From a virus (Duplodnaviria > Heunggongvirae > Uroviricota > Caudoviricetes), in the IMG/VR virus record IMGVR_UViG_2563366805_000004, positions 1-56,140 of that record: DNA of 56,140 nucleotides, one strand, 5' to 3'. Position 1 is the first letter of the stretch; every line of letters begins with the position of its first letter. The position numbers and the translations under genes were made by a program. Under the pieces are notes generated by a model. That model saw only the letters and a program-made list of their open reading frames with translations, did no database searches and had not been told where the DNA came from. This document shows, piece after piece, positions 1 to 23,889 of this stretch.

Positions 1-1490
1 TCTGCGATGGTTTTGTAGCCAGCCTTGAACGCTTCTGATTTCTCATTAATCTCCTCTGGAAGTTGAATCATGACGAATCTTCGAGACGAACCATCGACGC
101 TATTTGCTGCAATAGTTGCATGTGCGGTAGTCGCCGATCCTGCAAAAAAATCCATCACTATATCGTCGCCTGCCGTGGTCATTTCCACTAGTGCCTGAAT
201 GATCGTTTCATCCTTCGGAAAATCAAAAACATGTGCTTCCATCAACGCATCAAGTCGAATTGATGCACCACGCCCATCTTGATAGAAAACGCTGTAAGCA
301 GCTTCTTTGTTTGCCTCGTGAAGATATACCTTTAATGTTGGCCGTGTCTTTTCGTCTGCACCAAATCGAATACGCTCATCTGCAAGCAACTCCTTCATGC
401 GCTCCGGGGCAAATGACCAGCCATTAGGATGCATATTCACTGGTTTCCCAGTTATTGGATGCAAAATTTCATAGCGCGAGCGCGATGTGGGCTGTGGTTT
501 GCGAAGATCACTTGCAAAATAGATACCTCGCTTGTCAACGTATTGATAGTGTTTATGCCGCTTACTTGGATCGCTATCGGAGAGGCTGCTATACCATTTT
601 CGCAAGCCAACTTCGACAGCCGCATCGTCACCACCAAACTTACGGCGCAACTCCGAATAGGTTTTCTCAATTTCGGTGAGACCCTTTTTCAGAATTTGCC
701 ACGAGGCTCCTCGCTCTTTAAGAGCATTCATACTACGCGCAAAGCAAATGATGTATTCGTGTGACGCCGATATAAAGCGCGAGTCATTCTTTCGTCCAGC
801 AGCCCAAACCATCGTACCTACAAAATTCTCTGCACCGAAAACTTCACTGGCTATACTTTTTAAGTTCTCAAATTCAGCATCATTGATGGAGATAAAGATG
901 GCACCATCTTCTTTTAATAACCCCCTGGCAAGACGAAGCCGTGAATAAATCATTGAGAGCCAATCGGAATGAAAGCGACCATTCGATACTGTGTTAGCCA
1001 CCAACCTATTTCCGTCTTCATCTACTTGATTTGAACGACGCAAGTATTCGTCTGCATCTTCGGCAAAGTCATCCTCGTAAATAAAGTCGTTCCCGGTGTT
1101 GTACGGCGGATCAATGTAGATCAGCTTCACCTTGCCCAGATACGTCTCCTGCAACAGCTTCAGTGCATCAAGGTTGTCTCCCTCAATGAACAGGTTCTTC
1201 GTCGTATCGAAGTCCACACTTTCCTCACGCACCGGGCGCAGTGTCTTGGCAATCGGCGCGTTAGCCGCGAGCAAGGCTTCGCGCTTACCGGGCCAGTTCA
1301 GGTGGTAGCGTTCTTGCGGTCCTTCCACAATCGACTCAGCAAGCTCCTGCCGCAGTTGGTCAAAATCCACCGCCAGTTTCACACTGCCGTCTTCGCCCTT
1401 GGCTTCGGTGATGCAGCCTGGAAACAGATCGCGAATGCGGGCGATGTTGTCCTGCGTGAGATTTGGTGAATGCATTTTTAGCTTTTCCAT
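1..1490 (-). CDS. Type III Mod-like N6-adenine DNA methyltransferase, partial (C-terminus beyond window start)
   Basis: Minus-strand frame opens at ATG 1490 (MEKLKMHSPNLTQDNIARIRDLFPGC) after a GAGGA RBS and has no stop before the window edge, so it is absent from the ORF track. Same frame carries DPPYNTGNDF near 1100 and DFFAGSATTA near 130-158, the motif IV-then-motif I order of beta-class Mod enzymes. Confidence 0.8.
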   Translation of the reverse strand, partial: MEKLKMHSPNLTQDNIARIRDLFPGCITEAKGEDGSVKLAVDFDQLRQELAESIVEGPQERYHLNWPGKREALLAANAPIAKTLRPVREESVDFDTTKNLFIEGDNLDALKLLQETYLGKVKLIYIDPPYNTGNDFIYEDDFAEDADEYLRRSNQVDEDGNRLVANTVSNGRFHSDWLSMIYSRLRLARGLLKEDGAIFISINDAEFENLKSIASEVFGAENFVGTMVWAAGRKNDSRFISASHEYIICFARSMNALKERGASWQILKKGLTEIEKTYSELRRKFGGDDAAVEVGLRKWYSSLSDSDPSKRHKHYQYVDKRGIYFASDLRKPQPTSRSRYEILHPITGKPVNMHPNGWSFAPERMKELLADERIRFGADEKTRPTLKVYLHEANKEAAYSVFYQDGRGASIRLDALMEAHVFDFPKDETIIQALVEMTTAGDDIVMDFFAGSATTAHATIAANSVDGSSRRFVMIQLPEEINEKSEAFKAGYKTIA

Positions 1491-1549
1491 GTTCTTTTCC
1501 TCTGGACGTCGCACTGTTGCGCGGCGTCCTAATTCTTTCTGGGCTGGTT

Positions 1550-2965
1550 TTATTCGGCGTCAGAATTGTTTTGGTGTTTGAGCTCGGCAAATTTGGCAGC
1601 CATCGTTGGGTTGCCGCGCGTGAGTCGCTTGACCGTCAGGTCTTCGGCTTTATCGTTGGCAAGCCGAAGATTGTTGGCGGACTTGTGCAGGGCTTCTTTG
1701 GTCTTTTCAAGGTCCTTGATGGCTTCGTCGATGCGCTTGACCGCTTCTTCAAACCCATCTGAAGCCAAACGCCAGTTGCGACCGAATGCGGTCTTGAAGT
1801 CATCGAGCTGGGTTTCAAATTGGGTGATGTCGATGTTCTGCGCCTTCACCAGCGCCAGCTCGGACTTGTATTGAAGTGACTTCATCGCTGCATTGCGTAG
1901 TAGCGTGATGATGGGGATGAAGAACTGAGGCCGAACGACATACATCTTCGGGTAGCGGTGAAACACATCAACGATCCCAGCGTTGTAAAGTTCACTGTCT
2001 GGCTCCAGCAGGGAAACCAGCACGGCGTATTCGCAACCTTTTTCGGTGCGGTCCTTGTCGAGCTCCTTGAAGAAGTCTTCGTTTTTCTTCTTGGTTGCTG
2101 TTTCGTCGCCTTCGTTCTTCATCTCGAACATGATCGAGACGATCTCGGTGCCTGCATCATCCATGTCCCGGAAGATGTAGTCGCCCTTGCTGCCGGTGCG
2201 AACGTCGTTGTCTTTTTCGAAGTAGGCCATTGGGAATGCGGTGGCTCGGAGACGGTTAAACTCAATCTCGCAATGCTGCTCCAGGGTTTCCCCAATCATC
2301 TTGGTCGACAGCCGTGCCTTCATGTCCCGCAGACGTACAATCTCACCATCGCGATCTTTAAGCTGTGTTTCGTATTTATCTTTGAGTGCAGTCTCGGCAA
2401 GTTGCTTTTCCAATGCTGCTCGCTCTAGTCCGTTCTTGAGTTCGTCACGCTCCTTCGTCACCACGCTGACCGCTTCGGTGAGCGCGAGCTTTTGTGTAAC
2501 TTCGCCCGCTGCAAGCTTGGCCTGCAGACGCTGAATCTCCGCATCCTTGGTGGCCTCGGCTTGCTGTAGCTCACTTAATCGCTTCGCCTCGGCCAGTTGA
2601 GCTTTAGTTTCAATCTCTTGCTTTGCTTTTTCCAGCGCGTTCCTCAGTGCATCGCGATCTTTTTCTACCGCGCTCAGCGCCTCACTGACAGCAAGCTTTT
2701 GCGCCACCTCTCCTGCATCCAGCCTAGCCTTTAATGCCTGGATTTCGGCATCTTTTTCAGAAGCAGCCTTCTGCAATTCGCTGGTAACCTTGGCTTGAGC
2801 CAGCTCGACCGCATTTTGCTTGTCCCTTTCGGCCAGCTCAAGGCGTTCATGTAACTGCTTCTCAAAGTCAGCATCGCGAACCTGTTTCAGAATGTCTGAG
2901 TAACCAGCTTCATCAATCTTGAAAGCCTTGCCGCAATGGGGGCAGATGATTTCATGCATAGTCAT
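1550..2965 (-). CDS. Zn-ribbon plus long coiled-coil protein, DUF2130-like
   Basis: 471-aa ORF with N-terminal CPHCGK zinc-ribbon motif, a long E/K/A/L-rich heptad region and a conserved C-terminal domain; start overlaps the upstream stop by 4 nt (ATGA); GAAGGA RBS. Confidence 0.6.
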
Positions 2966-4842
2966 TTTCCTTCTACCTTGGCCAAAATTTGCTGGAGCAT
3001 CTCTGGCACCGCCCCTGCGGATTTGAGTGTCGCCGTGCGGTATGCGAGTTGGTTCTTCGAGAGACTAATACCTGTGGCAATCTCGATTTCACTGCAAGCA
3101 GCTAGCCACTCAGGCCAGTTGGCTACGAGAAATGATTCCAGATGGTCTTCAAAAATGGCGACTGTGTCGCCTACGACAGCTTCCGGAAAATCTTCTTCAG
3201 CAATACCGAAGTATTTCAGAGCTGTCCGGTTTTCTCGGGCATTTTTTGCAAGTTCTTCATCGATCTTGTTTTGCTGTTTTCCTTTGGCTTTTGCTCGCGC
3301 CGCACATGCTCTGTCAGCATCGAAAAGCGCATAAACCGGGATACCGAGTGCGGACAGGATGGCATGGACAAGAGGAATCGACGTCTTGCCTCCGACTGGG
3401 ACAATGGAAATACCAGCGGCTTCAAGCGCACCATGAGATATTTTGTCGCCTATACCGTGGAACACCGATGACTCGGTGGTACCCTCCACAAGAAAAGCGC
3501 GATGGGCAAAGAGGGCTACAGCCAGTTGCTCTGAAACGATGCCATCTAACTGACGTTCGACAACATCACCATTTACTATCTGGTGCAGCCTGGTCTTCAC
3601 ATCATCAATGGAGGCAAAGTGGATAGTCACAGTCGGAGTCTCTCCAGATGATCGCGTCAATCTCCTGACATGATCAAAATGGCGGGCCTCAAGGAAATAA
3701 GGGCTGTGCGTTGCATAGGTTACTTGGATACACTTGTCGGGGTCTTCAACAAGTGAGCGGAGCACTTTTGCAAACGCCTGTGCCTGAATCGGGTGCTGAA
3801 AGAGCTCAGGTTCTTCAATTGCTAAACAGATGACTCCGTCGGCTGAAGCTGCTCCCGATTGTGCCAAGAGCTGGAGCGCCGAGATCAGAATAGTCCGCTG
3901 AAAACCATGCCCCTGTCGCTCTACCGCTGTTTCGGTTGTACCATCGAGCACGGATACTTCGAACGTGGTCTTGGGGGCTTTGAGCTCTACCTCTGCGGGA
4001 GAAACCGTGACCGCCCGACCGGGTGAGTATGAGCAAACAACCTCGTTAAGCTGCGTCGTCATCACCTTAAGCTGGGCTTGGAATTTCTCTTCGTAGACTT
4101 TCTGCTGCTTTGCTCTGGACTCCTCGACGATTGCCGCAATCTCCTGATCTGCCGCTGCACGATCAACGGAGCGTTCCAGGATGCGTCCGATGATGCTCGA
4201 TTTACCGTCAATGGACTCTTCGCTTGCACGAAGGTCTGCAGTCACCAGCACAAAATCGAAGAGGCCGCTCATCTTGCCGCCGCTGTTGAAACCAAAGAAG
4301 TTGGTTTGCAGCGATTCGGGGGCGTCTACGAGTAACTCTGTATGTGATGCCTCCCAGGTAGTCATTGCCTGGTCAATGGCTGTACCGGTAGTGGCTGTAG
4401 GAAGCTCCAGCTCTGGACGACTAGTTCTGAGATTTGTATAAAGCTCCCTCTTCGCCGCTACGCCATTTGCAGTTTTGATTACGTTGAACTCTGGGAATCC
4501 CTTTGCGTTTGCAGAGAGCACATCGGTGCCGTCAGCTGAACGGCGCTTCCACGCCGTGAATGTAGCTGCGCCCTCTGGAGTGTACTTACCAAGCGCCTCC
4601 CGATCCTTTTCGGTGAGATCTGCGAATGTGACTTGCACCTCGATGTCTTCGCTAGCTTCTCCAAAGGAGCAGTCTTTCTCTGTCAGCGAGCCGGGCTTGC
4701 CGTTGAAGAACCAATCGAGTGCATGTAGCACTGTCGACTTGCCAGCGCCGTTCGGCCCTATGAATGTCGTAACGGAGTCGAAGGGAATCGTGACGTCTTT
4801 GAGTGCCCGGAAGTTTTTGATGCGAACGGATTGAATCTTCAT
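2962..4842 (-). CDS. OLD-family ABC-ATPase / Toprim nuclease
   Basis: 626 aa; N-terminal [14 protein letters not shown]...[11 protein letters not shown] Walker A; C-terminal Toprim signatures FLVEGTTE and a DxD motif (ALFDAD). Confidence 0.8.
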
Positions 4843-4876
4843 TTCAGTTTTATTCCCTTATACCTGTTGTGATCTA

Positions 4877-5566
4877 TCAATGTTTGAGTTCTTCCAGTTC
4901 TATTTTCAACATTCGCAGTTTGGCGTTGATCTCTACCTTGCGGTTGAATTGTTTTTCTTTGGCAAGTCTGCTGGCTATTTTTTCAACCTCACGTTGCTTG
5001 GCTGCAACCAGTTCGACACGTGCGACCAAATCCGCGAGACTTTCTTGTAGGCGCGCGGGCGTGGAGATCAGGCTGTGAAGCAACTGCTCATACAAGCCGC
5101 CCAAGTCGAGTGCTAAGGGCATGGCGGCGCGCTCACAGTCACTCGGCAACCAGGCTGTTGCAAAGTAGTCACTCAAGACCCAACGGCTGGCGTCTGACTC
5201 ATTGGGGCGTTTGTACGCAGCGATCACCTTTGTTCGGCCATCAAAGCTCAGCTCGAAGATAATGGGAAACTGCACTGCGCCATCGATGCAACGCAAAACG
5301 TCCAGATTCAGCTCCGATGCCTTGAGCTGGATTGAGAAAATCTGAAGCTCTGGTACTCCCAGCCTGGCGGGCAGGTTGATCGTTTCCGGAGCCAACTTGT
5401 ATTGCCAGACGATCTGCTCCACCTGCTCGACGAACAAGTCCTTCAGCCTCGTATTGGCGCCGCTGTGTTCGTAGATCTTATTCTTTGGCAGGGTACGACC
5501 AAAGACAGCCTGCTTCGGATAGTTGATGAACGCGGTATTCGACTCAAATCGCGCAGACTGACTCAT
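4877..5566 (-). CDS. DUF4391-like protein
   Basis: 229-aa ORF, 4-nt overlap with helicase stop; family assignment is from recollection of this domain next to helicase/methyltransferase genes, not verified. Confidence 0.5.
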   Translation of the reverse strand: MSQSARFESNTAFINYPKQAVFGRTLPKNKIYEHSGANTRLKDLFVEQVEQIVWQYKLAPETINLPARLGVPELQIFSIQLKASELNLDVLRCIDGAVQFPIIFELSFDGRTKVIAAYKRPNESDASRWVLSDYFATAWLPSDCERAAMPLALDLGGLYEQLLHSLISTPARLQESLADLVARVELVAAKQREVEKIASRLAKEKQFNRKVEINAKLRMLKIELEELKH

Positions 5567-8500
5567 CCGGCCTCCTGAATCACGAGGAAGGTAATCAGTT
5601 CGAAGTCGTCCAGTCCGACGATAGTATTGACCAACGCGGTGGTCTTTCCGCTGCAGAAGAGGCTGTCCAGATCCTTATCTTCCTTCACCTCGATCATTGA
5701 GCGGATGGCCTTGCCAAGCAGGTCCGAATACATCTGCATCTTGCGGCCATCGGCCGTTTCCTTATTGAACAGGAGACAGGCATCTGTAATAGGCTGGGCT
5801 TGTCCCTTGCAGCAGGTGCGAACCAGATCCAGCAAACGTTTGACTTCGGTGTAATCGTGAATGACTTCCCCCTCGCGATTAATGTAGACGAGGTAATAAG
5901 GGTGCAGGCGGTTGTGCTGACTGACGTTGACGCTTGGATTCCGGTTGCGTAGCGTGAAGATTACACCCGGGCGTAGGCCCATCTCCGGCTTGGCAGGCAC
6001 TACGGCGTGCATCCCGCTTGGCACGTTGCTCATTTCGCCATTGGCCTTCACATAGTTGAGCAAGTCCATTCGGAAGTCATTGAGCCCGAGATCAGTAATC
6101 GACACTCCGGTTTTCAGGTCTTCCAGCTCAATCACTTCCTCTTGCAAACGTCGCAATTGCTCTTTGCGATAAGACACATCGTTGGCTTGGGCGCTCAGCA
6201 CATTGTCGTCACCGGTGGCAGTGACATCGGCAATCATCATTCGGCTTTCAACCCGTTCCTTCAGGTTGATGTATTCGTCGAGCGAGATGTCTGGCCAGTA
6301 GTTAACCAGTTGGATGCTGCTGTTGGGTGAGCCGATGCGATCCACACGGCCGAAGCGCTGGATGATGCGCACGGGATTCCAGTGGATGTCGTAGTTGATG
6401 AGGTAGTCGCAGTCCTGTAGGTTCTGGCCTTCAGAGATACAATCGGTGCCGATCAACACATCTATCTCTGCCTCCTCATTTGGCAGCACGATGGCTTTCT
6501 CCTTCGAGTGCGGCGAGAAGAGGGTGAGCAGTTCCTGGAAGTCATAGCTCTTCTTGAGCGTGCTCTTCGGTGCCCCTTTGCCGGTGACTTTTGCACTGTG
6601 CAAGGTCTGTGTAGCCAGCAATTCCGGAGCCAAATTGGCATACAGATAGTCAGCGGTGTCGGCGAAGGCGGTGAAGATCAGCACCTTCTTGTTGCCAGGA
6701 TTCAGCGGTGCTGCGATCTTTTCCAGAACCAGTGCTTTGAGATGCTGCAGTTTGGCATCATCGGCAGCCGTGATCTTGTTCATCGACGTCAGCAAAGCAT
6801 CAATGATTTCCAGATCGACCTTCAGCTCGTGCTCCCAGGAAGGCAAGTCCATATCGGCGAGGCTGATTTTGACCTTGCCACCGATCTCACTGTCGCCATT
6901 GCTTGGCAGGTCGTCGTCCGCGTCGAGGTTTTCTAACTGGTCGGTCAGGTCATTTATTCTGCTATCAATGCCACTGAGGCCGCCAGTCTCATTGAAAGTG
7001 CTGATCTTGGCCAGCGTATTAGTGTGGTTCGCGCGCAGGGACTTGAGCGTCAAGCGGAAAGACTCAATCGAGCTTTCCAGGCGCTTGAGCAGGTTGGTCG
7101 TCATCAATGCCTGCAAACTCTTTTCACGGTCGATTTGTTTAAGCTTGCCTTTCCCTGCAACCTGAGTGTCATACATCTCCTCGTACTTCTTGAGCCGACT
7201 GGGCAGAATGTAGCTGATCGGGGCATAAACGGCGAGCTTGAGCAAAGACAGCTGCTCGAAGATCTCGTTGAAGCTCATCACATCCGTTCGCTGCGTGAGC
7301 GGACAGTGGAACGACAAGGGTTTGCGGCGCTCGGGGAATTGGCCTATTTCCTTGGTGTCGTAGAAAGTCTGGATATGCTTGCGTGAGCGTGCGATGGTGA
7401 CGCTGTCGAGCAATTCGAAGAAGTCGAAGTCCAACGAGTCCAGGATGGCCCGCGCTGTGCGCTCTTCCGGTGGAAGCTTTGCCCATGCATTGAAGCTGGC
7501 CTGCGCACCACGGAAAATGTCCTCTACCGTCTTGCCGGTACGCAGCTTCTTGCTGAGGTTTTCGGAATCGCCTTCGTAGGCCAGTGCCAGTTGGTTGCGC
7601 AGGTCATTGAAGCGGTTGTTCACCGGGGTGGCCGAAAGCATCAGCACCTTGGTCTTCACGCCTTCCTTGATAACCTTGTTCATCAGCTTCTGGTAGCGGG
7701 TTTCCTTGTCCTTATAGGCGTCATTGTTGCGGAAGTTGTGTGACTCGTCGATGACGACGAGGTCGTAGTTGCCCCAGTTAATGCGATTCAGCGGTGTGCC
7801 AAATGACTCACCGCTCGTACGGCTGAGGTCGGTATGACAAAGTACGTCGTAGTTGAACCGGTCGCGAGCAAATATGTTGGTTTTGAGGTTACGGCTGTAG
7901 TTCAGCCAGTTGTCCGCCAGCTTCTTGGGGCATAACACCAGAACTGACTTGTTGCGCAGTTCGTAATACTTTATCACGGCCAGCGCGGTGAAAGTCTTGC
8001 CCAAGCCCACGCTGTCGGCCAAGATGCACCCGCTGTAGCTCTCAAGTTTGTTAATGATCCCGGTGGCAGCATCTTTCTGGTAATTGAAGAGTTTGTTCCA
8101 GATGAGCGTGTCTTGATAGCCTGTGCGGTCGTTCGGTAGGACATCCTCGTTGATGTCGTCCAGAAACTCATTGAAGATATTGTAGAGCATCAGGAAGTAG
8201 ATGCTCTCGGGCGAGTTTTCCTGGTAGACGGATGCAATGTGGTCGCAGATCTGCTCCGTTACATCCTCCAGCTTCTCAGGATCTTGCCAGATCTGGTTAA
8301 ACAGACTGAGGTAGGTCGCCGTAAACGTCGACTCGTCCATTTTGTTGACGAGGTTTGAGACAGCGTTGCCTTGCTGGTAGCCAAGATCGACGGCGGTAAA
8401 TCCGTGCAGTGGCATGTAGGCAGTCTCTGCGGCGGCGGCCTGAACACAAGCAAACTGCTGCATCGGAGCCTTGCTGCGATTGGACTTGAATGTTGCCTTG

Positions 8501-8844
8501 CGCCGCATCCAGTCCGCGCACTCTTTTGCAATTGCGCGCTGGGTCAGTTTGTTACGCAGCTGAATTTCGAACTCACTCCCGTACAAGCTCCGTTCGCGGT
8601 CAGCCTTCGGTATGTGAAATTCTCTGCGTTCCTTGCGAATCTTGTCGGTAACCTCGTTAGCGGTAAACGTCGGTGAGGTAAAGATGAATTGCAGCTCGTC
8701 GATTTTTTCCAGCTCTGCTTTGAGCGCTTCGAACGCGTACATCGAAAAGCAGGAGGCGGCGATCTTCAGGCGAGCACTAGGTTTGAGCGTCTGCTTTAGG
8801 TCGTCTCCGAGCAGGTGGTTGATATTGTCGATCAGTTCCATCAA
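5563..8844 (-). CDS. SNF2-family (SF2) helicase/translocase with ~250-aa N-terminal extension
   Basis: 1093 aa; motif I LADSVGLGKTFTA, motif II VVIDESHNFRN, motif III LMLSATPVNN, motif VI QRFGRVDRIGS; no recognisable nuclease motif seen by eye. Confidence 0.85.
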   Translation of the reverse strand: MMELIDNINHLLGDDLKQTLKPSARLKIAASCFSMYAFEALKAELEKIDELQFIFTSPTFTANEVTDKIRKERREFHIPKADRERSLYGSEFEIQLRNKLTQRAIAKECADWMRRKATFKSNRSKAPMQQFACVQAAAAETAYMPLHGFTAVDLGYQQGNAVSNLVNKMDESTFTATYLSLFNQIWQDPEKLEDVTEQICDHIASVYQENSPESIYFLMLYNIFNEFLDDINEDVLPNDRTGYQDTLIWNKLFNYQKDAATGIINKLESYSGCILADSVGLGKTFTALAVIKYYELRNKSVLVLCPKKLADNWLNYSRNLKTNIFARDRFNYDVLCHTDLSRTSGESFGTPLNRINWGNYDLVVIDESHNFRNNDAYKDKETRYQKLMNKVIKEGVKTKVLMLSATPVNNRFNDLRNQLALAYEGDSENLSKKLRTGKTVEDIFRGAQASFNAWAKLPPEERTARAILDSLDFDFFELLDSVTIARSRKHIQTFYDTKEIGQFPERRKPLSFHCPLTQRTDVMSFNEIFEQLSLLKLAVYAPISYILPSRLKKYEEMYDTQVAGKGKLKQIDREKSLQALMTTNLLKRLESSIESFRLTLKSLRANHTNTLAKISTFNETGGLSGIDSRINDLTDQLENLDADDDLPSNGDSEIGGKVKISLADMDLPSWEHELKVDLEIIDALLTSMNKITAADDAKLQHLKALVLEKIAAPLNPGNKKVLIFTAFADTADYLYANLAPELLATQTLHSAKVTGKGAPKSTLKKSYDFQELLTLFSPHSKEKAIVLPNEEAEIDVLIGTDCISEGQNLQDCDYLINYDIHWNPVRIIQRFGRVDRIGSPNSSIQLVNYWPDISLDEYINLKERVESRMMIADVTATGDDNVLSAQANDVSYRKEQLRRLQEEVIELEDLKTGVSITDLGLNDFRMDLLNYVKANGEMSNVPSGMHAVVPAKPEMGLRPGVIFTLRNRNPSVNVSQHNRLHPYYLVYINREGEVIHDYTEVKRLLDLVRTCCKGQAQPITDACLLFNKETADGRKMQMYSDLLGKAIRSMIEVKEDKDLDSLFCSGKTTALVNTIVGLDDFELITFLVIQEAG

Positions 8845-9746
8845 GAGTCAGCCTTTGTAGCGGCGCTATAGCCTGGTGCCAGTAAGGCGTTTTTCACGCC
8901 GTAAATCGCGAGATGATCTTTGAGCCATAAACGGTACTCCGGTCCATTTAGGCAATGATCGGGTGAGCAGTCAACCCGCCAGCGCTGCAACATATAGCCC
9001 ACTACAGCCGCGCGAACGCGCATCCTAATCGAGCCATCGGCCATCCCGTAGTCCATCTTGATGATCTCGGGGCGTTCAATGCGCGGGTGCGGCACGAAAT
9101 CCAACTCGACGATGCGCGTCCACTGGATATCATTATCCGGTCGTTCGTTGGCCTGTGGAACCTCTTCAAGCAATGTTGGCGCTTCGATGCGGGTGACGAC
9201 GAAATCCCGAAACTCTCCACTTTTGCGATCAAAGGCCCGGGCGTGCCAGCGCAGGCCGGTATCTACCAAAGCAAAGGGCACAATGACCCGTTCGGACTTG
9301 CCGCTGCTCATCGAGTGGTAGCGGATGGCGACGGGGCGCTTGGAGTGGATGGCTCGACAAATCACGGCCAACACATCCATCTTGGGTATGCTCAGGACTG
9401 TGGGGGATTCACAGGGTAGCAACGCCTGCATTGGGCCATTCACGCCATCGCCAAAGCCCAGAGCCAGCGCCGACAGAACACGCTGCGATGCGTGCTCGAA
9501 TAACGGAGAGAACGCCTGCCCGATACGATAGATCTTGTCGCTACCATCAAAGGTGATGTTATTCGGAGCGATTTCCCGGTACAAAGCCAAATCGCGAGTC
9601 GCTCCTGCTGGAGCAACGCCAAAGCGCTCAATCAAATCTGGGCGACCGATCTCACCGAAGAAGTAAAGCCGAAAATCGATGTAGGCCAGCCGTTCGCGCT
9701 GGACCTGGCTCAAGTCGTCAAGCCGCTTACAAGGGGGACTAGGCAT
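8841..9746 (-). CDS. WYL-domain transcriptional regulator, BrxR/CapW-like
   Basis: 301 aa; N-terminal wHTH signature ERLAYIDFRLYFFGEIGRPDLIERFGVAPAGATRDLALYREIAP; stop overlaps helicase start (ATGA); first gene of the co-directional operon. Confidence 0.8.
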   Translation of the reverse strand: MPSPPCKRLDDLSQVQRERLAYIDFRLYFFGEIGRPDLIERFGVAPAGATRDLALYREIAPNNITFDGSDKIYRIGQAFSPLFEHASQRVLSALALGFGDGVNGPMQALLPCESPTVLSIPKMDVLAVICRAIHSKRPVAIRYHSMSSGKSERVIVPFALVDTGLRWHARAFDRKSGEFRDFVVTRIEAPTLLEEVPQANERPDNDIQWTRIVELDFVPHPRIERPEIIKMDYGMADGSIRMRVRAAVVGYMLQRWRVDCSPDHCLNGPEYRLWLKDHLAIYGVKNALLAPGYSAATKADS

Positions 9747-10090
9747 GAATCATCACTATAGGGAAAAATTAAAATTTAATACGGTAATCAATAAAGTGCC
9801 ATGATTATAATCAAATTGATGATAATCGACATTAATATTTATGTAAAAGCAAGAGATGACGTTTCAAACGTAGACAGTCATCGTATTAGCCGATGTTTCT
9901 ACAACGTTAGATTAATGCCTAACAACTATAAAACCTTACTGCCCAATGCCCTATCGCCCCTCGGACAATTTGTCCTTACCCACTGATCTGGCTTGAGGAT
10001 GAGGGGGACAGAATAACCTAACGACTTAGTAGCCGGGATCACCGGCGGAAGGGGTCTAACACCTACCTTAACTCAAATTAATTTCAGTTA

Positions 10091-10250
10091 TATATCATCC
10101 CTCTGAACATATCCGATTAACGGCGGAATCTCTCGATCCTGCCGTTTTTGTATTATTTTTCAGAGGAGTAGTAATGAACAATTCTGAAGGTTTGAAGCCA
10201 TTTCAGCAGTCGCTTGATGGTCTGCCACAATGGGTCTCAGAACGAGTCAT
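10091..10250 (+). repeat. Copy A of ~160-bp direct repeat (5' leader plus first codons of yfjP-type GTPase gene)
   Basis: About 80% identical by eye to 17285-17445; contains a hairpin followed by a T-run just upstream of a GAGGAG RBS. Confidence 0.6.
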
Positions 10251-11037
10251 GCAGCAAATTCGTCAACTGACAAACTACGAACCAGTGATCGGCATCATGG
10301 GTAAAACCGGTGTTGGGAAGAGCAGTCTGTGCAATGCCCTGTTTGCTGGAGAGGTATCGCCGGTCAGCGATGTGGCGGCCTGTACTCGTGAGCCACTGCG
10401 CTTTCGACTGCAAGTTGGCGACCGCCATATGACGCTGGTGGACCTGCCCGGCGTAGGCGAAAGTGGCGCTCGCGATATCGAGTATGCTGCGCTGTATCGC
10501 GAACAACTCCCCCGGCTCGACCTGGTGCTGTGGTTGATCAAGGCTGATGACCGGGCGCTGGCAGTAGATGAACACTTTTATCATCAGGTGATTGGGGAGG
10601 CATACCGGCATAAGGTGCTGTTTGTTATCAGCCAGTCGGATAAGGCCGAACCCACCAGCGGTGGGAGACCATTGTCCATCACGCAGAAGCAGAACATCAG
10701 CCGCAAAATCTGTCTGCTGCATGAGCTGTTCCAGCCCGTACATCCAGTATGTGCCGTGTCGGTCCGTCTTCAGTGGGGGCTGCGGGTGATGGCCGAGCGA
10801 ATGATTAAGTGTCTGCCACGTGAGGCCACCAGCCCGGTGGTGTCGCAACTCCAGCCTTCCTTTCGCACGACGTTAGTCCGGGAGCAGGCTCGTAGCGATT
10901 TTGGTGAAACCATCGGTGCTGTACTCGATAGCATCAGTGCCTTTCCCCTGATACCCGCCCCGGTGCGGGCCGTCATTCAGGCCGTGCGCACCACTGTGGT
11001 GTCAGTGGCCCGCGCCGTCTGGGATTTCTTCTTCTAA
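10174..11037 (+). CDS. yfjP: YfjP/YeeP/YkfA-family GTPase
   Basis: 287 aa; P-loop GIMGKTGVGKSSLCNAL and DLPG motif; length and order match the CP4-57 backbone. Confidence 0.85.
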   Translation: MNNSEGLKPFQQSLDGLPQWVSERVMQQIRQLTNYEPVIGIMGKTGVGKSSLCNALFAGEVSPVSDVAACTREPLRFRLQVGDRHMTLVDLPGVGESGARDIEYAALYREQLPRLDLVLWLIKADDRALAVDEHFYHQVIGEAYRHKVLFVISQSDKAEPTSGGRPLSITQKQNISRKICLLHELFQPVHPVCAVSVRLQWGLRVMAERMIKCLPREATSPVVSQLQPSFRTTLVREQARSDFGETIGAVLDSISAFPLIPAPVRAVIQAVRTTVVSVARAVWDFFF

Positions 11038-11128
11038 GTATTTAACCCATTCCTGTTATTTCCCTGACCCTGTCGCCGATGCGACGGGGATCCCTTTTAT
11101 TTGTTTTCCCGTTATGAGGAGTCTGCTT

Positions 11129-11950
11129 ATGACCCGTCTGGCTTCGCGCTTTGGCGCAGCAAATTTTATCCGTCGCGACCGCCCTTTAACCCGTGAGGAG
11201 CTGTTTCGCGTGGTGCCCAGTGTGTTCAGCGAGGACAAACATGAGTCCCGCAGTGAGCGTTATACCTATATACCCACCATATCCCTGCTGGGCAGCCTAC
11301 AGCGAGAAGGCTTCCAGCCATTCTTTGCCTGTCAGACCCGGGTACGTGACCCGGGTCGTCGGGAACACACAAAGCACATGCTGCGCCTGCGTCGGGAGGG
11401 ACAGATTACCGGTAAGCAGGTGCCGGAAATCATTTTGCTGAATTCACATGATGGCACCAGTTCGTACCAGATGTTGCCGGGACTATTTCGTGCGGTTTGT
11501 CAGAACGGGCTCGTCTGTGGTGAGTCATTTGGCGAGGTGCGGGTGCCGCACAAGGGGGACGTGGTAAGTCAAGTGATTGAAGGCGCGTATGAAGTGCTGG
11601 GCATTTTTGACCGTGTGGAGGAGAAGCGGGATGCGATGCAGTCGTTGCTGTTGCCGCCACCGGCGCAGCAGGCACTGGCAAAAGCCGCGCTGACGTACCG
11701 CTTTGGTGAAGACCACCAGCCGGTGACTGAATCGCAGATCCTCTCCCCGCGCCGCTGGCAGGATGAGAGTAACGACCTGTGGACCACGTATCAGCGTATT
11801 CAGGAGAACCTGATTAAGGGCGGGCTCAGTGGCCGTAATGCCAAAGGGGGACGGTCACATACCCGGGCCGTTCGCGGTATAGACGGGGACGTGAAACTTA
11901 ACCGGGCACTGTGGGTGATGGCGGAAGCGATGCTCACGCAACTGCGGTGA
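11129..11950 (+). CDS. yfjQ: YfjQ-like protein (DUF932 family)
   Basis: Start moved to MTRLASRFGAA (GAGGAG RBS 8 nt upstream); sequence matches recollected YfjQ/YeeQ N-terminus. Confidence 0.75.
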   Translation: MTRLASRFGAANFIRRDRPLTREELFRVVPSVFSEDKHESRSERYTYIPTISLLGSLQREGFQPFFACQTRVRDPGRREHTKHMLRLRREGQITGKQVPEIILLNSHDGTSSYQMLPGLFRAVCQNGLVCGESFGEVRVPHKGDVVSQVIEGAYEVLGIFDRVEEKRDAMQSLLLPPPAQQALAKAALTYRFGEDHQPVTESQILSPRRWQDESNDLWTTYQRIQENLIKGGLSGRNAKGGRSHTRAVRGIDGDVKLNRALWVMAEAMLTQLR

Positions 11951-12166
11951 CCGTTTCATGTTGCCACGTTGTTAATATCGGACACCACCTGTCCGCATTG
12001 CAACGTGCTGGCGGTCCTTACACACCGAGGGATGGCCTGTAACCCCCGCTACATCTGGCTTTTGCAGAAATAAAAAATAGTTTCTGTGGTGTCCATACCC
12101 TGTCCGCCCCCTTATTTAAAGTAATCACATCATTTTCAGTCAGTTAACTTCCACGGAGAACGTCTC

Positions 12167-12868
12167 ATGACACAGGCAGAACGCCGCCATGACCGGCTGG
12201 CTGTCAGACTGTCACTGATAATCAGCCGTCTGGTGGCGGGGGAAACGCTGAGTGTGCATAAGCTGGCCGCTGAGTTTGGTGTGTCGGTGCGCACGCTGCG
12301 GCGTGATTTTCGCGAGCGGCTGATGTATCTGGACCTGGAGTATCAGTCCGGATATTGCCGCTTACGTACTGCTGGCAGTGAAATGCAGATGGTGCCCGAC
12401 GTGCTTATCTTTGCTCACCGCAGCGGGCTGGCCGGACTTTTTCCAGGCCTTGACCGCCGTCTGGTGAACGCTCTGCTGATGTGCGATGAGTCTCCCTGCG
12501 TGATAGCACCAGCTAATCCGGTTCCTTCGCCCTCAGGAGCATTGTCTTTCTGGAGACTGATTCAGGCCATTACCGGGCGCAGGCGGGTGACGCTGATTGC
12601 GGAGGGGCGACGCTGTGAGCGCCTGGCTCCCTGCCGATTACTCATACACCAGCAGACCTGGTATCTGGTGGCTGAACACTACGGGCATATCGCCGTATTC
12701 ACACTTGATGAAATCCATCTGATTCATCCTTTGCAGGAGACTTTTCGCCGCAATGACAGTCTGTGCCGTCTGACTGAAGACCCGGTTTTCATTCAGGCCT
12801 TACCCCATTTTCGCTTTATCCAGCAGTCACTGCTTACGTTTGTTCCGGCTGACAGCCCACCGGAATAG
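12167..12868 (+). CDS. yfjR: YfjR-like HTH transcriptional regulator
   Basis: 233 aa; N-terminal HTH ([21 protein letters not shown]); position after yfjQ. Confidence 0.7.
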
Positions 12869-14699: not shown

Positions 14700-16322
14700 T
14701 CATTCTTCCTCATGATAATCGCTCTTGCTCCATAATGGCTTGATAGCGTGATAGGCGCCACTGAATGGACATTTAGAATTTTTGTTCCGCTGGATTCGGA
14801 GCAAATCATCAATATCCTTTTCGATGATTTTTTTTACCTGTGAATGGTATCGCTGAAGTGAGACATCACTAATGGACTTTTCAAAGCGGAGGCTGGTGTC
14901 TTGATTCACAAGATCGTAAACACCGTCTTTTATTTTCATTCTGTTGCCTTCAGGGATGCCCATTTTCAGGTCATAGCATTTCAACCCGGCCAGACGGACT
15001 TCGACACCGACGCGCTCAGTACGTGTTTTCTTGTGGCTAATCAGAAGCACTTTATTGTTTTCGTACCATTTTTCAAAGGATTGCACTATATCTCTGTTCT
15101 TTTGTTGGTTGCCTTGAGAAGCGCTGTAAAAATGATAACTGTTCGAACTATAGACGTGACGTTCCCGGTCGGAGATTTGCGGAATGGTACCTTTCTGCCT
15201 GCGCATCTGGTCGGCAGGCTGCTCATAAATACGTAGTAAGCAGTCTGCGAGAGAGTCTGAAGCATCATGCAACGTATTGGTCTGGATGAGTTTCAGGAGG
15301 GTATCTCGCTTGATTGAAATCTGGCAATAATCGCTCTCCCAAGCCACTGTCGGTTGCTGCTCTTCCCCTTCTGAAGAGGTGGTGATATCAGGCGTAACAG
15401 TGGTGAATTTCCAGACAAATGGTGTTGATTGCGAATATTTGAAATACATCTGAAGCTCAGCCAGCCACTGTATGATCTCCGAAGCATAAATGCCCACATA
15501 CTGGTCGAACAGATATTCGGCGTACTGAGGTGCGCACTGTTCAACAATCCTTTCAATGAACTCAACACGCCCTTCATCGTTAATTAACTTTATTATTTTA
15601 TGGAATACGCCGTTCTTCCGCCTTTCTCCTATCAGAAAATTTGTGTGAACTTTTTCAAATTCGGACAGCCAGTCGGGAGTAACAATGCCGGCATCATGCA
15701 AAGCGGTAATTAAGTTGTAAATTGCATCAGCAAGTATCGGAAGTGAATCTATTTTGTGGAAATCGTTCAATCGGGAAAGTAGCTCCTGGCTGCATGAGTG
15801 CGCAATGGAAAGGTCCTGATGGCAGTAGCCTTTTCGTGCCTGAGGCGGGATTGGCGAACAATGTGTCGGGCCCTCGGCCAAGATGGCAAACATATCATCG
15901 TGAATAAACTGCTCCAGAAGTTTGCTTTGTTCCGTAAAGCGGAACCCCTGCTCTGTTGGCTGCCGGTTCATCTCTCTCCAGGTCTTCAGACTGACCTTGC
16001 CATCATCAAAACCGGCATAGAGTTGATGCATGAAAATGAGTGCATCCATGAGGCTGTCCTGCTTTTGTTCCTTAAAATGAAACTCATATGTGTTCTGAGA
16101 GTAGATTTTGTTGATTTTATTGCTCTGGGCTCGCAGCTTTGTCAGTACCTTGTGCTGCTCATCAAACCACTTGCTGAATTCAGTATCTTCATTCAGTTGC
16201 CGGGCCTTAAGGATGAGGAGAAGTATCTGTTCGCTGATTGCATCATAAATGTTCGGGAAAGGGTTGGCGGCACCAGAAAGAAACGTGCAGAACAGAGACT
16301 TGTTATGTTCAGAATGGTGCAT
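14700..16322 (-). CDS. Hypothetical 540-aa protein, AT-rich (positional equivalent of CP4-57 yfjW)
   Basis: Long uninterrupted ORF in a visibly AT-rich segment with AT-rich promoter-like region upstream (16323-16660); no motif recognised by eye. Confidence 0.6.
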   Translation of the reverse strand: MHHSEHNKSLFCTFLSGAANPFPNIYDAISEQILLLILKARQLNEDTEFSKWFDEQHKVLTKLRAQSNKINKIYSQNTYEFHFKEQKQDSLMDALIFMHQLYAGFDDGKVSLKTWREMNRQPTEQGFRFTEQSKLLEQFIHDDMFAILAEGPTHCSPIPPQARKGYCHQDLSIAHSCSQELLSRLNDFHKIDSLPILADAIYNLITALHDAGIVTPDWLSEFEKVHTNFLIGERRKNGVFHKIIKLINDEGRVEFIERIVEQCAPQYAEYLFDQYVGIYASEIIQWLAELQMYFKYSQSTPFVWKFTTVTPDITTSSEGEEQQPTVAWESDYCQISIKRDTLLKLIQTNTLHDASDSLADCLLRIYEQPADQMRRQKGTIPQISDRERHVYSSNSYHFYSASQGNQQKNRDIVQSFEKWYENNKVLLISHKKTRTERVGVEVRLAGLKCYDLKMGIPEGNRMKIKDGVYDLVNQDTSLRFEKSISDVSLQRYHSQVKKIIEKDIDDLLRIQRNKNSKCPFSGAYHAIKPLWSKSDYHEEE

Positions 16323-19956: not shown

Positions 19957-20032
19957 CCCTTAAGTTCCTAGCCGCTTATCTATAACTATGGAAAAATGTT
20001 AACCCTGACTGTATGTTAACAAAGGGATGTAT

Positions 20033-21241
20033 ATGTCGGTTTTTCATAACTGGCTGCTTGATATCGCAAGCGGGAATTACTTTATCTACATCAAACGCCT
20101 TTCTGCAAACGACACAGGCGCAACAGGTGGCCATCAGGTCGGACTTTATATCCCCTCAAATATCGTTGAAAAGCTTTTTCCATCTATCAATCATACTCGC
20201 GAACTGAACCCTTCAGTCTTCCTTACTGCGCATGTATCATCCCATGATTGCCCTGATACCCAAGCACGCGCAATTTATTACAACAACCGTTATTTTGGTA
20301 AGACCCGAAACGAAAAAAGAATTACGCGCTGGGGGAGAGGAAGTCCATTACAGAACCCTGAAAATACAGGAGCCCTCACAATTCTTGCTTTCAGGTTAAA
20401 CGAACAGAACACTGACTGTTCCGAGGTAGATATATGGGTCTGCGTCAATCCCGATGAAGAGGATATCATCGAGTCTGCTATTGGCGAAATCATACCTGGA
20501 ACCCTAATTTCCGGCCCTGCCGGACAAATTTTGGGCGGATTGTCTCTTCAGCAAACTCCAGTAAATCATAAATATGTTATTCCTGAAGACTGGAAGAAGC
20601 GTTTTCCTTCTGGAAACGAAATTATTCAATATGCTGCTGGCCATTATGCTAAAAACTCCAAGGATCCAGATGAGCAACTGATTGACCGTCGGCGTGTCGA
20701 GTATGATATTTTTCTACTCGTCGAGGAATTACATGTTCTTGATATTATTAAGAAAGGATTCGATTCTGTAGATGAGTTTATTGCATTAGCCAACTCTGTC
20801 AGTAATCGACGTAAATCAAGGGCAGGCAAATCACTTGAACTTCACCTAGAGAAGCTTTTTATCGAGCACGGACTACGGCATTTCTCCACTCAGGCAGTTA
20901 CTGAAGGTAATAAAAAACCAGATTTCCTGTTTCCTTCAGCAGAGGCATATCATAACGTTGAATTTCCTGTAGAAAACTTACGTATGCTGGCAGTAAAGAC
21001 CACCTGCAAAGATCGCTGGCGTCAGATACTGAATGAAGCAGATAAAATCCATCAGGTACATTTATTTACACTGCAAGAAGGTGTTTCTTCAGCACAATAC
21101 CGAGAAATGAAAGATGCGGGTGTCAGACTCGTTGTACCATCAACTTTACATAAAAAATACCCAGAAGCAGTTAGAGAAGAATTAATAACGCTCGGAGCAT
21201 TCATTACTGAGCTGATAGAGCTTTACGCTGAACTATCATAG
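20033..21241 (+). CDS. ecoRIIR: EcoRII-like Type IIE restriction endonuclease
   Basis: Near full-length match to recollected EcoRII (MSVFHN…RLSANDTG…GGHQVGLYIPS…VENLRMLAVKTTCKDRWRQILNEADKIHQVHLFTLQEG). Confidence 0.9.
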   Translation: MSVFHNWLLDIASGNYFIYIKRLSANDTGATGGHQVGLYIPSNIVEKLFPSINHTRELNPSVFLTAHVSSHDCPDTQARAIYYNNRYFGKTRNEKRITRWGRGSPLQNPENTGALTILAFRLNEQNTDCSEVDIWVCVNPDEEDIIESAIGEIIPGTLISGPAGQILGGLSLQQTPVNHKYVIPEDWKKRFPSGNEIIQYAAGHYAKNSKDPDEQLIDRRRVEYDIFLLVEELHVLDIIKKGFDSVDEFIALANSVSNRRKSRAGKSLELHLEKLFIEHGLRHFSTQAVTEGNKKPDFLFPSAEAYHNVEFPVENLRMLAVKTTCKDRWRQILNEADKIHQVHLFTLQEGVSSAQYREMKDAGVRLVVPSTLHKKYPEAVREELITLGAFITELIELYAELS

Positions 21242-21245
21242 GCTG

Positions 21246-21270
21246 ACTCCCGGCTTAAAAGGCCGGGAGA
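21246..21270. other. Perfect 8-bp-stem hairpin between convergent R and M genes
   Basis: ctcccggc ttaaaag gccgggag; no flanking T-run, so terminator function is uncertain. Confidence 0.4.
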
Positions 21271-21275
21271 TGTTC

Positions 21276-22709
21276 TTAAGGCTGCCCAGTCTTACCAGCA
21301 TCAGCAGAAACAGCTTTGAGGATATAGGGTTCCAGAAGTCTGGCAACAGCTTCAAATACTGGCACCACAACTGAGTTACCGAACTGCCGATATGACTGAG
21401 TATCTGAAACCGGAATACGGAATGGTTTCCCTCCAGGTTTTTCAAATCCCATAAGGCGTGCGCACTCTCGGGGAGTCAGCCTGCGTGGTCGACGAGCCTG
21501 ATTACTCTCATTCATAAAGTCAGCCTCTCCCGTTGCCATATCCCAACCACGATCAATAAGAATTTCTGATCCGTCTTTGTGATATCTGGCAGAAAGTGTG
21601 CGTGCAATGCTTTCCTTATTCTCAGGATTGACCAACCCAAAGCCAAAACCATTCCCCTTGGCTGCATGCTTTTTGGCGTAGTTATAAAGGTACTCCCATA
21701 GTTTTGGCGTAAGTATATATTTACTGTCGACTACAGGCTCCAGCAATTCACCAAATGATGGGCGGTGTTCCGGATAAAAACGACTGATATCACGCAAGGT
21801 AAACCCCTTGTGAATATTCAGATCTCGTCTAAATCCGACCAGAACAATACGTTCACGATGCTGAGGCAAAAAATGCTTCCCATCGATAATCTTTGGATCG
21901 TTTTTTCCCATTTCTGCAGCATCGGCAACTTCGTAGCCCAGCTCGTCAAGGGTCTCCATAATGACTTTGAAAGTTTTACCCTTATCATGGCTCTTCAGAT
22001 TTTTGACATTTTCCAGCACAAAAATTGCCGGTTTTTTTGCTCGTATAATACGTGCCACGTCAAAAAAAAGTGTTCCTTGTGCTTCACATTCAAAACCATG
22101 CGCACGACCAAGTGAGTTTTTCTTACTAACACCAGCAAGGCTAAATGGCTGGCACGGGAACCCCGCAAGAAGCACATCATGATCCGGCACATGCTCATCA
22201 ATATATGCATAAGCATCCGTTTCCAATACATCGGTTTTATCACTCAGCGTGACTTCCCGAATATCGAGATTGAATTTATGCACCTGTTCATCGTTAAACC
22301 AGTTGGCCTTGTATGTACGCACAGCATCTTTATTCCATTCACTGGTAAAAACACACTGGCCTCCAATGGCCTCAAAACCTTTCCGTATCCCTCCAATTCC
22401 AGCAAATAAGTCAATGAAGCGGAAAGCATATTCCGGATGGTTTGCAGGTGGTTCTGGTAGCATCTTACGCAGAAGAGACTCTTCTACTGAAGTCAACGAT
22501 TTTGGTAAACACTTGCCATTAATCCAGCGGTTAATGGTTTCACGGCTCCACTCATTTTTTCCGACTTTTCTCAGTAATTCAGCCACATACTTCTGATCAT
22601 AGATTTCCAGCACTTTCTCGATAAGCTTTTTATCATTTTCCTGTCGCAGCTTTTCTTCCGCCTCGGCTTCCTTCAGCAGATGCTGTGCCAACACTTCAAA
22701 TTCAGACAT
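21276..22709 (-). CDS. ecoRIIM: M.EcoRII/Dcm-type C5-cytosine DNA methyltransferase
   Basis: Start moved to MSEFEVLAQ (GGAGG RBS); motifs FAGIGG, PCQPFS, ENV; near-identical to recollected M.EcoRII and Dcm. Confidence 0.9.

Positions 22710-23070: not shown

Positions 23071-23889
<819 letters not shown>

What the first reader, a model, noticed from the sequence alone, without database searches (positions are those of the whole stretch)
4877..8844. SNF2-type helicase with an unassigned ~250-aa N-terminal domain, translationally coupled to a DUF4391-like gene, and no nuclease domain
The helicase has complete SF2 motifs but no PD-(D/E)xK, HNH or PLD signature that I can see, so it is unlike a Type III Res subunit. 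The N-terminal region (MMELIDNINHLLGDDLKQTL…IAASCFSMYAFEAL) is conserved-looking but unassigned. If this is a restriction-like module paired with the Mod enzyme, the cleavage activity must come from a separate gene such as the adjacent OLD-type Toprim protein, which would be an unusual split-Res arrangement.
Basis: inference. Interest (0 to 1): 0.6.

Follow-up and report, generated by a model that had tools for sequence, protein, structure and literature searches.

The report
Four-gene Type III restriction operon variant

The parts
8841..9746 (-). BrxR-family WYL transcriptional regulator (301 aa), first gene of the operon
   Evidence: Pfam WYL E 3e-14. 48% identical over its full length to a protein with WHD_BrxR+WYL+BrxR_CTD hits. 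The orthologue in L114 carries PF26109/PF13280/PF26107. Its stop overlaps the helicase ATG as TGATG.
9819..9847 (-). sigma-70-like promoter match upstream of the regulator gene (weak evidence)
   Evidence: TTTACA-17-TATCAT, 10/12. The number of such sites in the region is not above the shuffle expectation. No convincing minus-strand terminator lies between the genes.
5563..8841 (-). SNF2-family ATPase ('helicase-related protein', 1092 aa from ATG 8841)
   Evidence: Pfam SNF2-rel_dom, ResIII, DEAD, Helicase_C. PADLOC 'HKD+Snf2' full length E 4e-128. phrog_26785 full length. 50-100% identity across 86 loci.
8218..8841 (-). N-terminal PLD-superfamily fold domain without an HKD active site (residues ~1-208), with a highly conserved but low-confidence insert at residues ~60-90
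6292..8109 (-). SNF2 ATPase core (residues ~245-850) with intact motifs I, II (DESH), III and VI
5566..6291 (-). conserved C-terminal region of the helicase (residues ~851-1092), unassigned
   Evidence: No Pfam or PDB sequence match at E<=10. Conserved at 78-96% per 50-residue block. No D...ExK pattern seen.
4877..5566 (-). DUF4391 protein (229 aa): alpha/beta domain (14-166) plus a long helical hairpin (177-228). Start overlaps the helicase stop (ATGA).
4937..4957 (-). invariant EKQFNRK motif of DUF4391 (residues 204-210)
   Evidence: Residues 204-209 (EKQFNR) are invariant in alignments spanning 100% to 29% identity; K210 is invariant in A2 and in A3.
2962..4842 (-). OLD-family ABC-ATPase + Toprim nuclease (626 aa): cargo in slot 1, not a core component
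   Evidence: Pfam AAA_15 + OLD-like_TOPRIM and PADLOC Old. Present in only some loci. Lies inside the segment 1024-5521 that is nearly identical to L114 while the flanks are not.
1550..2965 (-). DUF2130 protein (471 aa), overlapping the OLD stop (ATGA): second gene of the cargo cassette
   Evidence: Pfam DUF2130 E 1.7e-90. Travels with OLD in L001, L015, L020, L042, L057, L080, and with other partners in L026 and L078.
1..1490 (-). 5' part (496 codons) of the Type III Mod methyltransferase, cut by the window edge. Res follows outside the window.
   Evidence: Open frame from ATG 1490. Same N-terminus as the Mod of L001-L003, which is PADLOC MTase_III over its full length and Pfam N6_N4_Mtase. 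Collinear with L114, where Mod is followed by Res.

Best explanation
[quoted passage not shown] The order is (BrxR-type regulator) - SNF2 ATPase with a catalytically dead PLD-like N-terminal domain - DUF4391 - [cargo slot 1] - Mod - [cargo slot 2] - Res. Shown: the gene order, its conservation, the PLD fold, the loss of the HKD residues, the intact SNF2 ATPase motifs, the intact Res ATPase and PD..ExK motifs, and the interchangeable cargo (here OLD+DUF2130). Inferred: Mod methylates host sites and Res supplies the DNA cleavage. Also inferred: the helicase and DUF4391 are made in fixed ratio (overlapping genes) and form a complex. The dead PLD domain would serve as a dimerisation or DNA/partner-binding module, as single-HKD PLD nucleases dimerise through this fold. 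DUF4391 would be the adaptor, and the SNF2 motor would translocate on DNA in concert with Mod/Res. That could mean acting as a second motor or collision partner, or clearing and marking unmethylated invader DNA, so widening or controlling what the Type III enzyme restricts. OLD+DUF2130 is a separate two-gene back-up module parked inside the operon.
For: Synteny: of 97 loci seeded on DUF4391, 82/83 have the helicase directly upstream, 60/60 have Mod and 59/59 have Res downstream. It holds at 27% DUF4391 / 51% helicase / 47% Res identity (L099, L100) and in Morganellaceae and Acinetobacter. In complete E. coli genomes the pair and the Res DNA each match 54/5426 genomes once, and all 40 listed Res records are in the helicase list. 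Helicase and DUF4391 co-diverge (Spearman 0.72; helicase-Res 0.56). Overlapping stop/start codons. PLD fold; HKD absent; SNF2 motifs intact; Res complete. Cargo variety in two slots. The gap from DUF4391 to Mod is <=150 bp in 45/88 loci and >1 kb in 31/88; the gap from Mod to Res is <=150 bp in 49/77 and >900 bp in 21/77. The window is itself a recombinant: 1-1503 and 4923-12000 are 99.3-99.5% identical to E. coli PCP06171, which has a UvrD-like cargo. Positions 1024-5521 differ at 3 sites from AP025919.1 (OLD+DUF2130 cargo), whose flanks differ by 7-10%. The same kinds of embedded OLD/Schlafen/REase cargo are reported inside BREX and BREX-related operons (PMC12839542).
Against: No experiment or interaction prediction links the helicase-DUF4391 pair physically or functionally to Mod/Res; the coupling rests on co-occurrence alone. 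The left and right halves recombine: 42 locus pairs have helicase >=94% but Res <=78% identical, so no tight co-adaptation is visible. A canonical Mod+Res pair is in principle self-sufficient. DUF4391's fold and role are unassigned. The loci were found by seeding on DUF4391, and the reverse test (does this Res clade ever occur without the pair?) was done only in E. coli. Res is not inside the window itself.
Confidence: 0.6

Rival explanations
1. The helicase-DUF4391 pair is a self-contained two-gene defence system (a motor plus a sensor/effector of unknown fold) that merely sits next to a Type III system in a defence island and works independently of Mod and Res.
For: Canonical Type III systems need only Mod and Res. 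The two halves of the locus recombine independently. Other defence genes are freely inserted between them. The pair forms its own overlapping gene unit.
Against: The pair has no active nuclease or other recognisable effector. It was never seen without Mod and Res where the contig allowed (60/60, 59/59), even at 27% identity. In E. coli the counts are 54 versus 54. Order and strand are fixed and the operon shares one upstream regulator.
Confidence: 0.2
2. The pair is a control device rather than an extra weapon. It would restrain or time Res (restriction alleviation, protection of unmethylated host sites after replication or repair, safe establishment after horizontal transfer) or help Mod reach its sites.
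For: The system is highly mobile: near-identical helicases occur in Gamma- and Betaproteobacteria, and it sits in integrative elements. Establishment in a naive host is then a recurrent problem. Type III enzymes methylate only one strand, so self-protection is delicate (established knowledge). The SNF2 motor lacks a nuclease.
Against: There is no direct evidence. A BrxR-type regulator is already present for transcriptional control in part of the loci. A 1092-aa motor conserved at a median 84% identity is a costly regulator.
Confidence: 0.12
3. One reading: the module lacks its own Res, and the adjacent OLD Toprim protein supplies cleavage (split-Res).
For: Inside the window no Res is visible, and OLD lies between DUF4391 and Mod, apparently co-transcribed.
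Against: Res lies directly after Mod in contigs with the identical cargo and in all other loci, with intact nuclease motifs. About half of the loci have no gene in this slot (45/88 gaps <=150 bp) and others have unrelated cargo. The OLD+DUF2130 block was recently swapped into this lineage.
Confidence: 0.03
4. The pair hides a non-canonical nuclease. Either the PLD-like domain uses a different catalytic constellation (for example the conserved F-K-S-N strand, residues 118-121), or the alpha/beta domain of DUF4391 is a very divergent nuclease (invariant E73, D95 and K119, and near-invariant E105).
For: There are many invariant polar residues in both proteins. The fold search for DUF4391 was dominated by its helical hairpin, so a weak nuclease-fold match to the alpha/beta domain could have been hidden.
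Against: PLD chemistry needs the histidine nucleophile, which is absent in the whole family. No nuclease family matched DUF4391 by sequence profile or Foldseek. The secondary-structure order of DUF4391 does not follow the alpha-beta-beta-beta-alpha-beta core of PD-(D/E)xK enzymes.
Confidence: 0.05

Closest known systems
Classical Type III restriction-modification systems (EcoP15I, EcoP1I: Mod + Res)
   Same: Mod is a Type III N6_N4 methyltransferase and Res an SF2 ATPase with a C-terminal PD..ExK endonuclease domain, adjacent and in the order mod-res.
   Different: Two further conserved genes (an SNF2 ATPase with a dead PLD domain, and DUF4391) always precede mod, and there are two hot spots for defence cargo inside the operon. 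Classical systems are two-gene units.
Type-2 BREX-related (BR) systems: HKD-endoDNase+Swi2/Snf2 helicase, DUF3780, DUF499 ATPase, N6-MTase (Rakesh and Krishnan, NAR 2026, PMC12839542)
   Same: A helicase with an N-terminal PLD/HKD-fold domain fused to an SNF2 core, paired with a small alpha+beta protein of unknown fold and a methyltransferase. OLD, Schlafen and REase cargo is embedded in the operon. The best PADLOC model for our helicase is named 'HKD+Snf2'.
   Different: Here the HKD site is lost. The small partner is DUF4391, not DUF3780. There is no DUF499 ATPase. The methyltransferase is a Type III Mod, and a separate Res supplies the nuclease. In Type-2 BR the HKD domain is proposed as the primary effector.
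DISARM class 1 (DrmD SNF2 helicase, DrmMI methylase, DrmA, DrmB/DUF1998, DrmC PLD nuclease)
   Same: An SNF2 ATPase plus an adenine methylase plus a second SF2 helicase plus PLD-fold material in one methylation-based operon. DrmD is the best NCBIfam hit for the helicase core.
   Different: The DrmD score is 143 bits against a cut-off of 610. No DrmA, DrmB or DUF1998 genes are present. The PLD fold is fused and inactive. The second helicase is a true Type III Res with a PD..ExK nuclease.
SauUSI and other PLD-helicase restriction enzymes (NgoAVII, BfiI as PLD nucleases)
   Different: Those enzymes keep HxK...GSxN and cut DNA through a PLD dimer. This family has lost these residues and has an SNF2-type motor.
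Hma (HmaA SNF2-nuclease, HmaB methylase, HmaC DUF499 ATPase; PMC11232893)
   Same: An SNF2 motor in a methylase-containing operon that has a defence-gene insertion hot spot.
   Different: HmaA carries an active C-terminal PD-(D/E)xK nickase and protects on its own. The partner families differ (DUF1156, DUF499). The PADLOC HmaA score is only 90.7 bits.
BrxR-regulated defence islands (Picton et al. 2022, PMC9122601)
   Same: A BrxR-family WYL regulator heads the operon. BrxR homologues are reported next to Type III systems.
   Different: That work does not describe the helicase-DUF4391 pair. The regulator is absent from many non-enterobacterial loci.

Membership tests
Type III restriction-modification system | Mod: Type III (beta-class N6_N4) DNA methyltransferase | tested here: met
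   The window holds the first 496 codons. Full-length orthologues hit PADLOC MTase_III at E 2e-229 and Pfam N6_N4_Mtase.
Type III restriction-modification system | Res: SF2 ATPase with C-terminal PD-(D/E)xK endonuclease, encoded next to mod | tested here: met
   Not inside the window, but present directly after Mod in collinear contigs with the identical cargo and in 59/59 loci. Motifs are intact. Pfam ResIII + RE_endonuc.
Type III restriction-modification system | Two-gene system (mod, res) sufficient by itself | tested here: not met
   Two additional conserved genes accompany this clade in every locus examined. Whether they are required was not testable.
HKD/PLD nuclease-helicase fusions (SauUSI-like; Type-2 BR helicase) | PLD-superfamily fold at the N-terminus of an SF2 motor | tested here: met
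HKD/PLD nuclease-helicase fusions (SauUSI-like; Type-2 BR helicase) | Catalytic HxK(x)4D...GSxN motif | tested here: not met
   No conserved H, K or N at the mapped positions in 182 sequences. No PLDc Pfam hit at E<=10. The mapping is by secondary-structure order, not by a residue-level structural superposition.
Type-2 BREX-related system | DUF499 ATPase, DUF3780 protein and BR-type N6-MTase in the locus | tested here: not met
   The operon genes hit DUF4391, N6_N4_Mtase and ResIII/RE_endonuc instead; no DUF499 or DUF3780 hits.
DISARM | DrmD at the NCBIfam equivalog cut-off; DrmA and DrmB (DUF1998) present | tested here: not met
   DrmD 143 bits versus a cut-off of 610. No DUF1998 or DrmA genes among the called genes of the loci.
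SNF2 family ATPase | SNF2-rel_dom + Helicase_C with motifs I, II (DExH), III and VI | tested here: met
   Pfam, PDB sequence hits to SNF2H, RapA and Rad54-like proteins, motif conservation.
Pfam DUF4391 | Full-length match above the gathering score | tested here: met
   191 bits versus 29.9, profile positions 1-232 of 232.
OLD family nucleases / Gabija | ABC-type ATPase + Toprim in one protein; for Gabija, a GajB UvrD-type helicase partner | tested here: inconclusive
   The neighbouring gene has AAA_15 + OLD-like_TOPRIM and the best PADLOC hit 'Old'. Its partner is DUF2130, not GajB, so it is an OLD-family module but not Gabija.
BrxR family regulators | WHD_BrxR + WYL + BrxR_CTD architecture | tested here: met
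   The direct Pfam scan gave only WYL. The orthologue in L114 carries all three families on record, and the window protein is 48% identical over its full length to another such protein.

The most novel reading that the evidence does not exclude
The SNF2 motor with its dead PLD domain and the new-fold DUF4391 adaptor form a complex with Mod/Res that changes the rules of Type III restriction. It could give a directional, ATP-driven collision partner so that single or same-orientation unmethylated sites become cleavable, which closes the classic escape route of phages such as T7. Alternatively it could exclude DNA without cleavage. This would define a distinct four-component class of restriction-modification system, present in hundreds of species, that also serves as a docking platform for other defence modules.
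Probability: 0.3. Interest if true: 0.8.

Novelty: new variant of a known kind. Interest (0 to 1): 0.6.

Why it matters
Type III restriction enzymes are textbook two-subunit machines. A large, horizontally spreading clade of them never occurs without an SNF2 motor and a protein of unknown fold. It was found in 405 species-representative genomes with close-relative patterns alone, and its protein families have thousands of sequence clusters. This means a component of their biology is unexplained: either a new way of extending restriction or a new way of keeping it safe. The operon is small, occurs in well-studied strains such as E. coli CFT073 and ABU 83972, and can be tested by simple deletions. 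It also offers a clean natural example of defence genes being swapped in and out of two fixed slots by homologous recombination. Finally, it shows a nuclease fold recycled as a non-catalytic module. Annotation pipelines currently label these genes only 'helicase-related protein' and 'DUF4391', and the PADLOC library used here (v2.0.0) has no DUF4391 model.

Full report
WHAT IS THERE. On the minus strand of the first 10 kb the window carries a tight gene row.
- A 301-aa WYL regulator lies at 9746-8841.
- A 1092-aa SNF2-type ATPase lies at 8841-5563.
- A 229-aa DUF4391 protein lies at 5566-4877.
- A 626-aa OLD-family ATPase/Toprim protein lies at 4842-2962.
- A 471-aa DUF2130 protein lies at 2965-1550.
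- From ATG 1490, the first 496 codons of a methyltransferase run off the left edge.

Pfam, PADLOC and NCBIfam confirm these identities. The regulator's stop overlaps the helicase ATG (TGATG). The helicase stop overlaps the DUF4391 ATG (ATGA, preceded by AGGAGG). The OLD stop overlaps the DUF2130 start. The helicase most likely starts at ATG 8841 (MELIDN...), as in its homologues, not at the TTG three bases upstream.

THE N-TERMINAL DOMAIN. Sequence profiles give nothing for residues 1-250, even at E<=10. Two results nevertheless assign it.
- The best PADLOC model for the whole protein is one named 'HKD+Snf2', aligned end to end (E 4e-128).

An insert at residues ~60-90 is among the most conserved stretches of the protein but is modelled with low confidence. 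That pattern would fit a partner-binding segment; this is inference.

The SNF2 motifs I, II (DESH), III and VI are >=97% conserved. The C-terminal 240 residues are conserved but unassigned.

CONTEXT DECIDES THE INTERPRETATION. [quoted passage not shown] In between there is either OLD+DUF2130 (strains H5/H6), a 900-aa UvrD-like protein (PCP06171, 0H strains) or nothing (CFT073, ABU 83972).

I collected 80 loci from species-representative genomes and 17 from viral contigs by seeding on DUF4391, and annotated them by BLASTP.
- 82 of 83 loci with enough upstream sequence have the helicase directly upstream.
- 60 of 60 have Mod downstream and 59 of 59 have Res downstream.
- The order persists where DUF4391 is only 27% identical (helicase 51%, Res 47%).
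- It also persists in Morganellaceae and Acinetobacter.

In 5426 complete E. coli genomes the helicase-DUF4391 DNA and the Res DNA each occur in 54 genomes, once each. All 40 listed Res records are in the helicase list.

Mod and Res are canonical. They match PADLOC MTase_III and REase_III over their full length and Pfam N6_N4_Mtase and ResIII + RE_endonuc. In 62 Res sequences GTGKT, DEPQ, SAT, QEVGRGLRL and PD...ETK are all >=97% conserved. Contigs that encode the identical DUF2130 protein are collinear with the window over 12 kb. They show Res starting 11 nt after Mod, about 0.5 kb beyond the window's edge.

OLD+DUF2130 IS CARGO. The gap between DUF4391 and Mod is <=150 bp in 45 of 88 loci and >1 kb in 31. 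The Mod-Res gap is <=150 bp in 49 of 77 and >900 bp in 21.
- Slot 1 holds, in different loci, OLD+DUF2130, a UvrD-like protein, SIR2+HerA, AAA_13 ATPases, an AAA+ ATPase with an S8 peptidase, or Schlafen/AlbA_2+HATPase.
- Slot 2 holds YhcG/DUF1016 PD-(D/E)xK proteins, Schlafen+HATPase, a PLDc_2 protein, or AAA_21+DUF4276.

The window itself documents a swap. Positions 1-1503 and 4923-12000 are 99.3-99.5% identical to E. coli PCP06171, which carries the UvrD-like cargo. Positions 1024-5521 differ at only three sites from AP025919.1, which carries OLD+DUF2130, although that record's flanks differ by 7-10%. The cassette was exchanged by recombination in the conserved 3' end of DUF4391 and the 5' end of mod. 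The same habit of parking OLD, Schlafen and REase modules inside methylation-based operons has been described for BREX and BREX-related systems (PMC12839542) and for Hma (PMC11232893).

HOW IT PROBABLY WORKS. Shown:
- a complete Type III Mod/Res;
- an intact SNF2 motor with a dead PLD domain;
- a co-translated small partner;
- fixed synteny.

Co-divergence is strongest between the helicase and DUF4391 (Spearman 0.72). It is moderate between the helicase and Res (0.56) and weak for Mod, whose specificity region varies.

Inferred: Mod marks self and Res cuts. The helicase and DUF4391 form a complex, with the PLD fold retained for dimerisation or binding. The SNF2 motor acts on DNA together with Mod/Res. 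It would then extend restriction (second motor or collision partner, removal of obstacles, cleavage-independent exclusion) or control it.

Against a tight complex: the left and right halves recombine freely. In 42 locus pairs the helicase is >=94% but Res <=78% identical. An independent two-gene system, a self-protection device and a cryptic nuclease remain rivals.

COMPARISON AND NOVELTY. The nearest described systems are:
- classical Type III RM, with the same Mod/Res but without the pair;
- Type-2 BREX-related systems, which have an HKD-Snf2 helicase, a small unknown-fold DUF3780, a DUF499 ATPase and an MTase;
- DISARM class 1, with the DrmD SNF2 protein, a methylase, a second helicase and a PLD nuclease;
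- Hma.

Membership fails for each of the last three on tested features. DrmD scores 143 bits against a cut-off of 610. No DUF499, DUF3780 or DUF1998 is present. The HKD motif is absent. Full-text searches for DUF4391, PF14335 and the E. coli protein accessions found no description of this four-gene arrangement. One possibly relevant preprint (MANTIS) could not be read.

I therefore rate it a new variant of a known kind. It is widespread: 405 species genomes were confirmed with close-relative patterns, 6401 DUF4391 clusters were found, and 2048 representative clusters match the N-terminal domain. It is easy to test in E. coli.

LIMITS. No interaction or functional data exist. The HKD mapping rests on secondary-structure order rather than a residue-level superposition. 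The DUF4391 fold search could not be repeated on the alpha/beta domain alone. Res is inferred for this genome from collinear relatives.

Noticed in passing
window 1-1503, 1024-5521, 4923-12000 (versus L002 and L114): The window is a recombinant. Its flanks are 99.3-99.5% identical to E. coli PCP06171, which has a UvrD-like cargo. The DUF4391-OLD-DUF2130-Mod-5' segment differs at only 3 sites from AP025919.1, whose flanks diverge by 7-10%. This looks like a recent cassette swap by homologous recombination.
   Followed up: yes
L004-L116 (e.g. L078:10692-14224, L095:10705-14058, L107:12872-14681, L062:12636-13685): There are two cargo slots inside the operon (DUF4391|Mod and Mod|Res). They hold SIR2+HerA, AAA+ with an S8 peptidase, AAA_13, Schlafen+HATPase, UvrD-like, YhcG/DUF1016, AAA_21+DUF4276 or a PLDc_2 protein. 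The 349-aa PLDc_2 cargo in L062 is curious next to a helicase with a dead PLD domain.
   Followed up: partly
window 8572-8664 (helicase residues ~60-90): A very strongly conserved insert in the PLD-like fold (REFxIP...RE.SLYGSEFE) is modelled with pLDDT below 50. It may be a partner- or DNA-binding segment.
   Followed up: no
window 20027-23889: A second, unrelated restriction system lies in a low-GC stretch: an EcoRII-type endonuclease (20027-21241, +), a C5 cytosine methyltransferase (21276-22751, -) and a GIY-YIG protein (23116-23889, +).
   Followed up: partly
window 24543-49766: Lambdoid prophage structural genes are present: tail fibre (24543-27509), gpJ tip attachment protein (28238-31735) and terminase large subunit gpA (44058-46160), with a strongly negative GC skew throughout.
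   Followed up: partly
window 10174-12868: This is the backbone of a CP4-type integrative element next to the operon: a YeeP/LeoA-like GTPase, DUF932 and a second small HTH/WYL protein. E. coli relatives continue with ypjK, yfjS, antirestriction, RadC-like and CbtA/CbeA-type toxin-antitoxin genes and a tRNA. A Cronobacter element with the same cargo is described in PMC12757443.
   Followed up: partly
window 14700-16322 (-), 50385-51846 (+): A 540-aa ORF, and two ORFs of 308 and 182 aa, have no Pfam match. They sit in low-GC patches (GC 0.44 and 0.34).
   Followed up: no
window 1550-2965 (-): DUF2130 has an N-terminal CxxC..., long repeated coiled-coil segments and a C-terminal block with a D...EMK pattern (GDYIF...FEMKNE) reminiscent of PD-(D/E)xK/RmuC-like nucleases. 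This was read from the sequence only. There is no PADLOC, NCBIfam or PHROG model.
   Followed up: no
L024:7586-8218: This is the one locus with ample upstream sequence but no helicase before DUF4391. The DUF4391 there is N-terminally truncated, so it is probably a rearranged or mis-binned contig.
   Followed up: no
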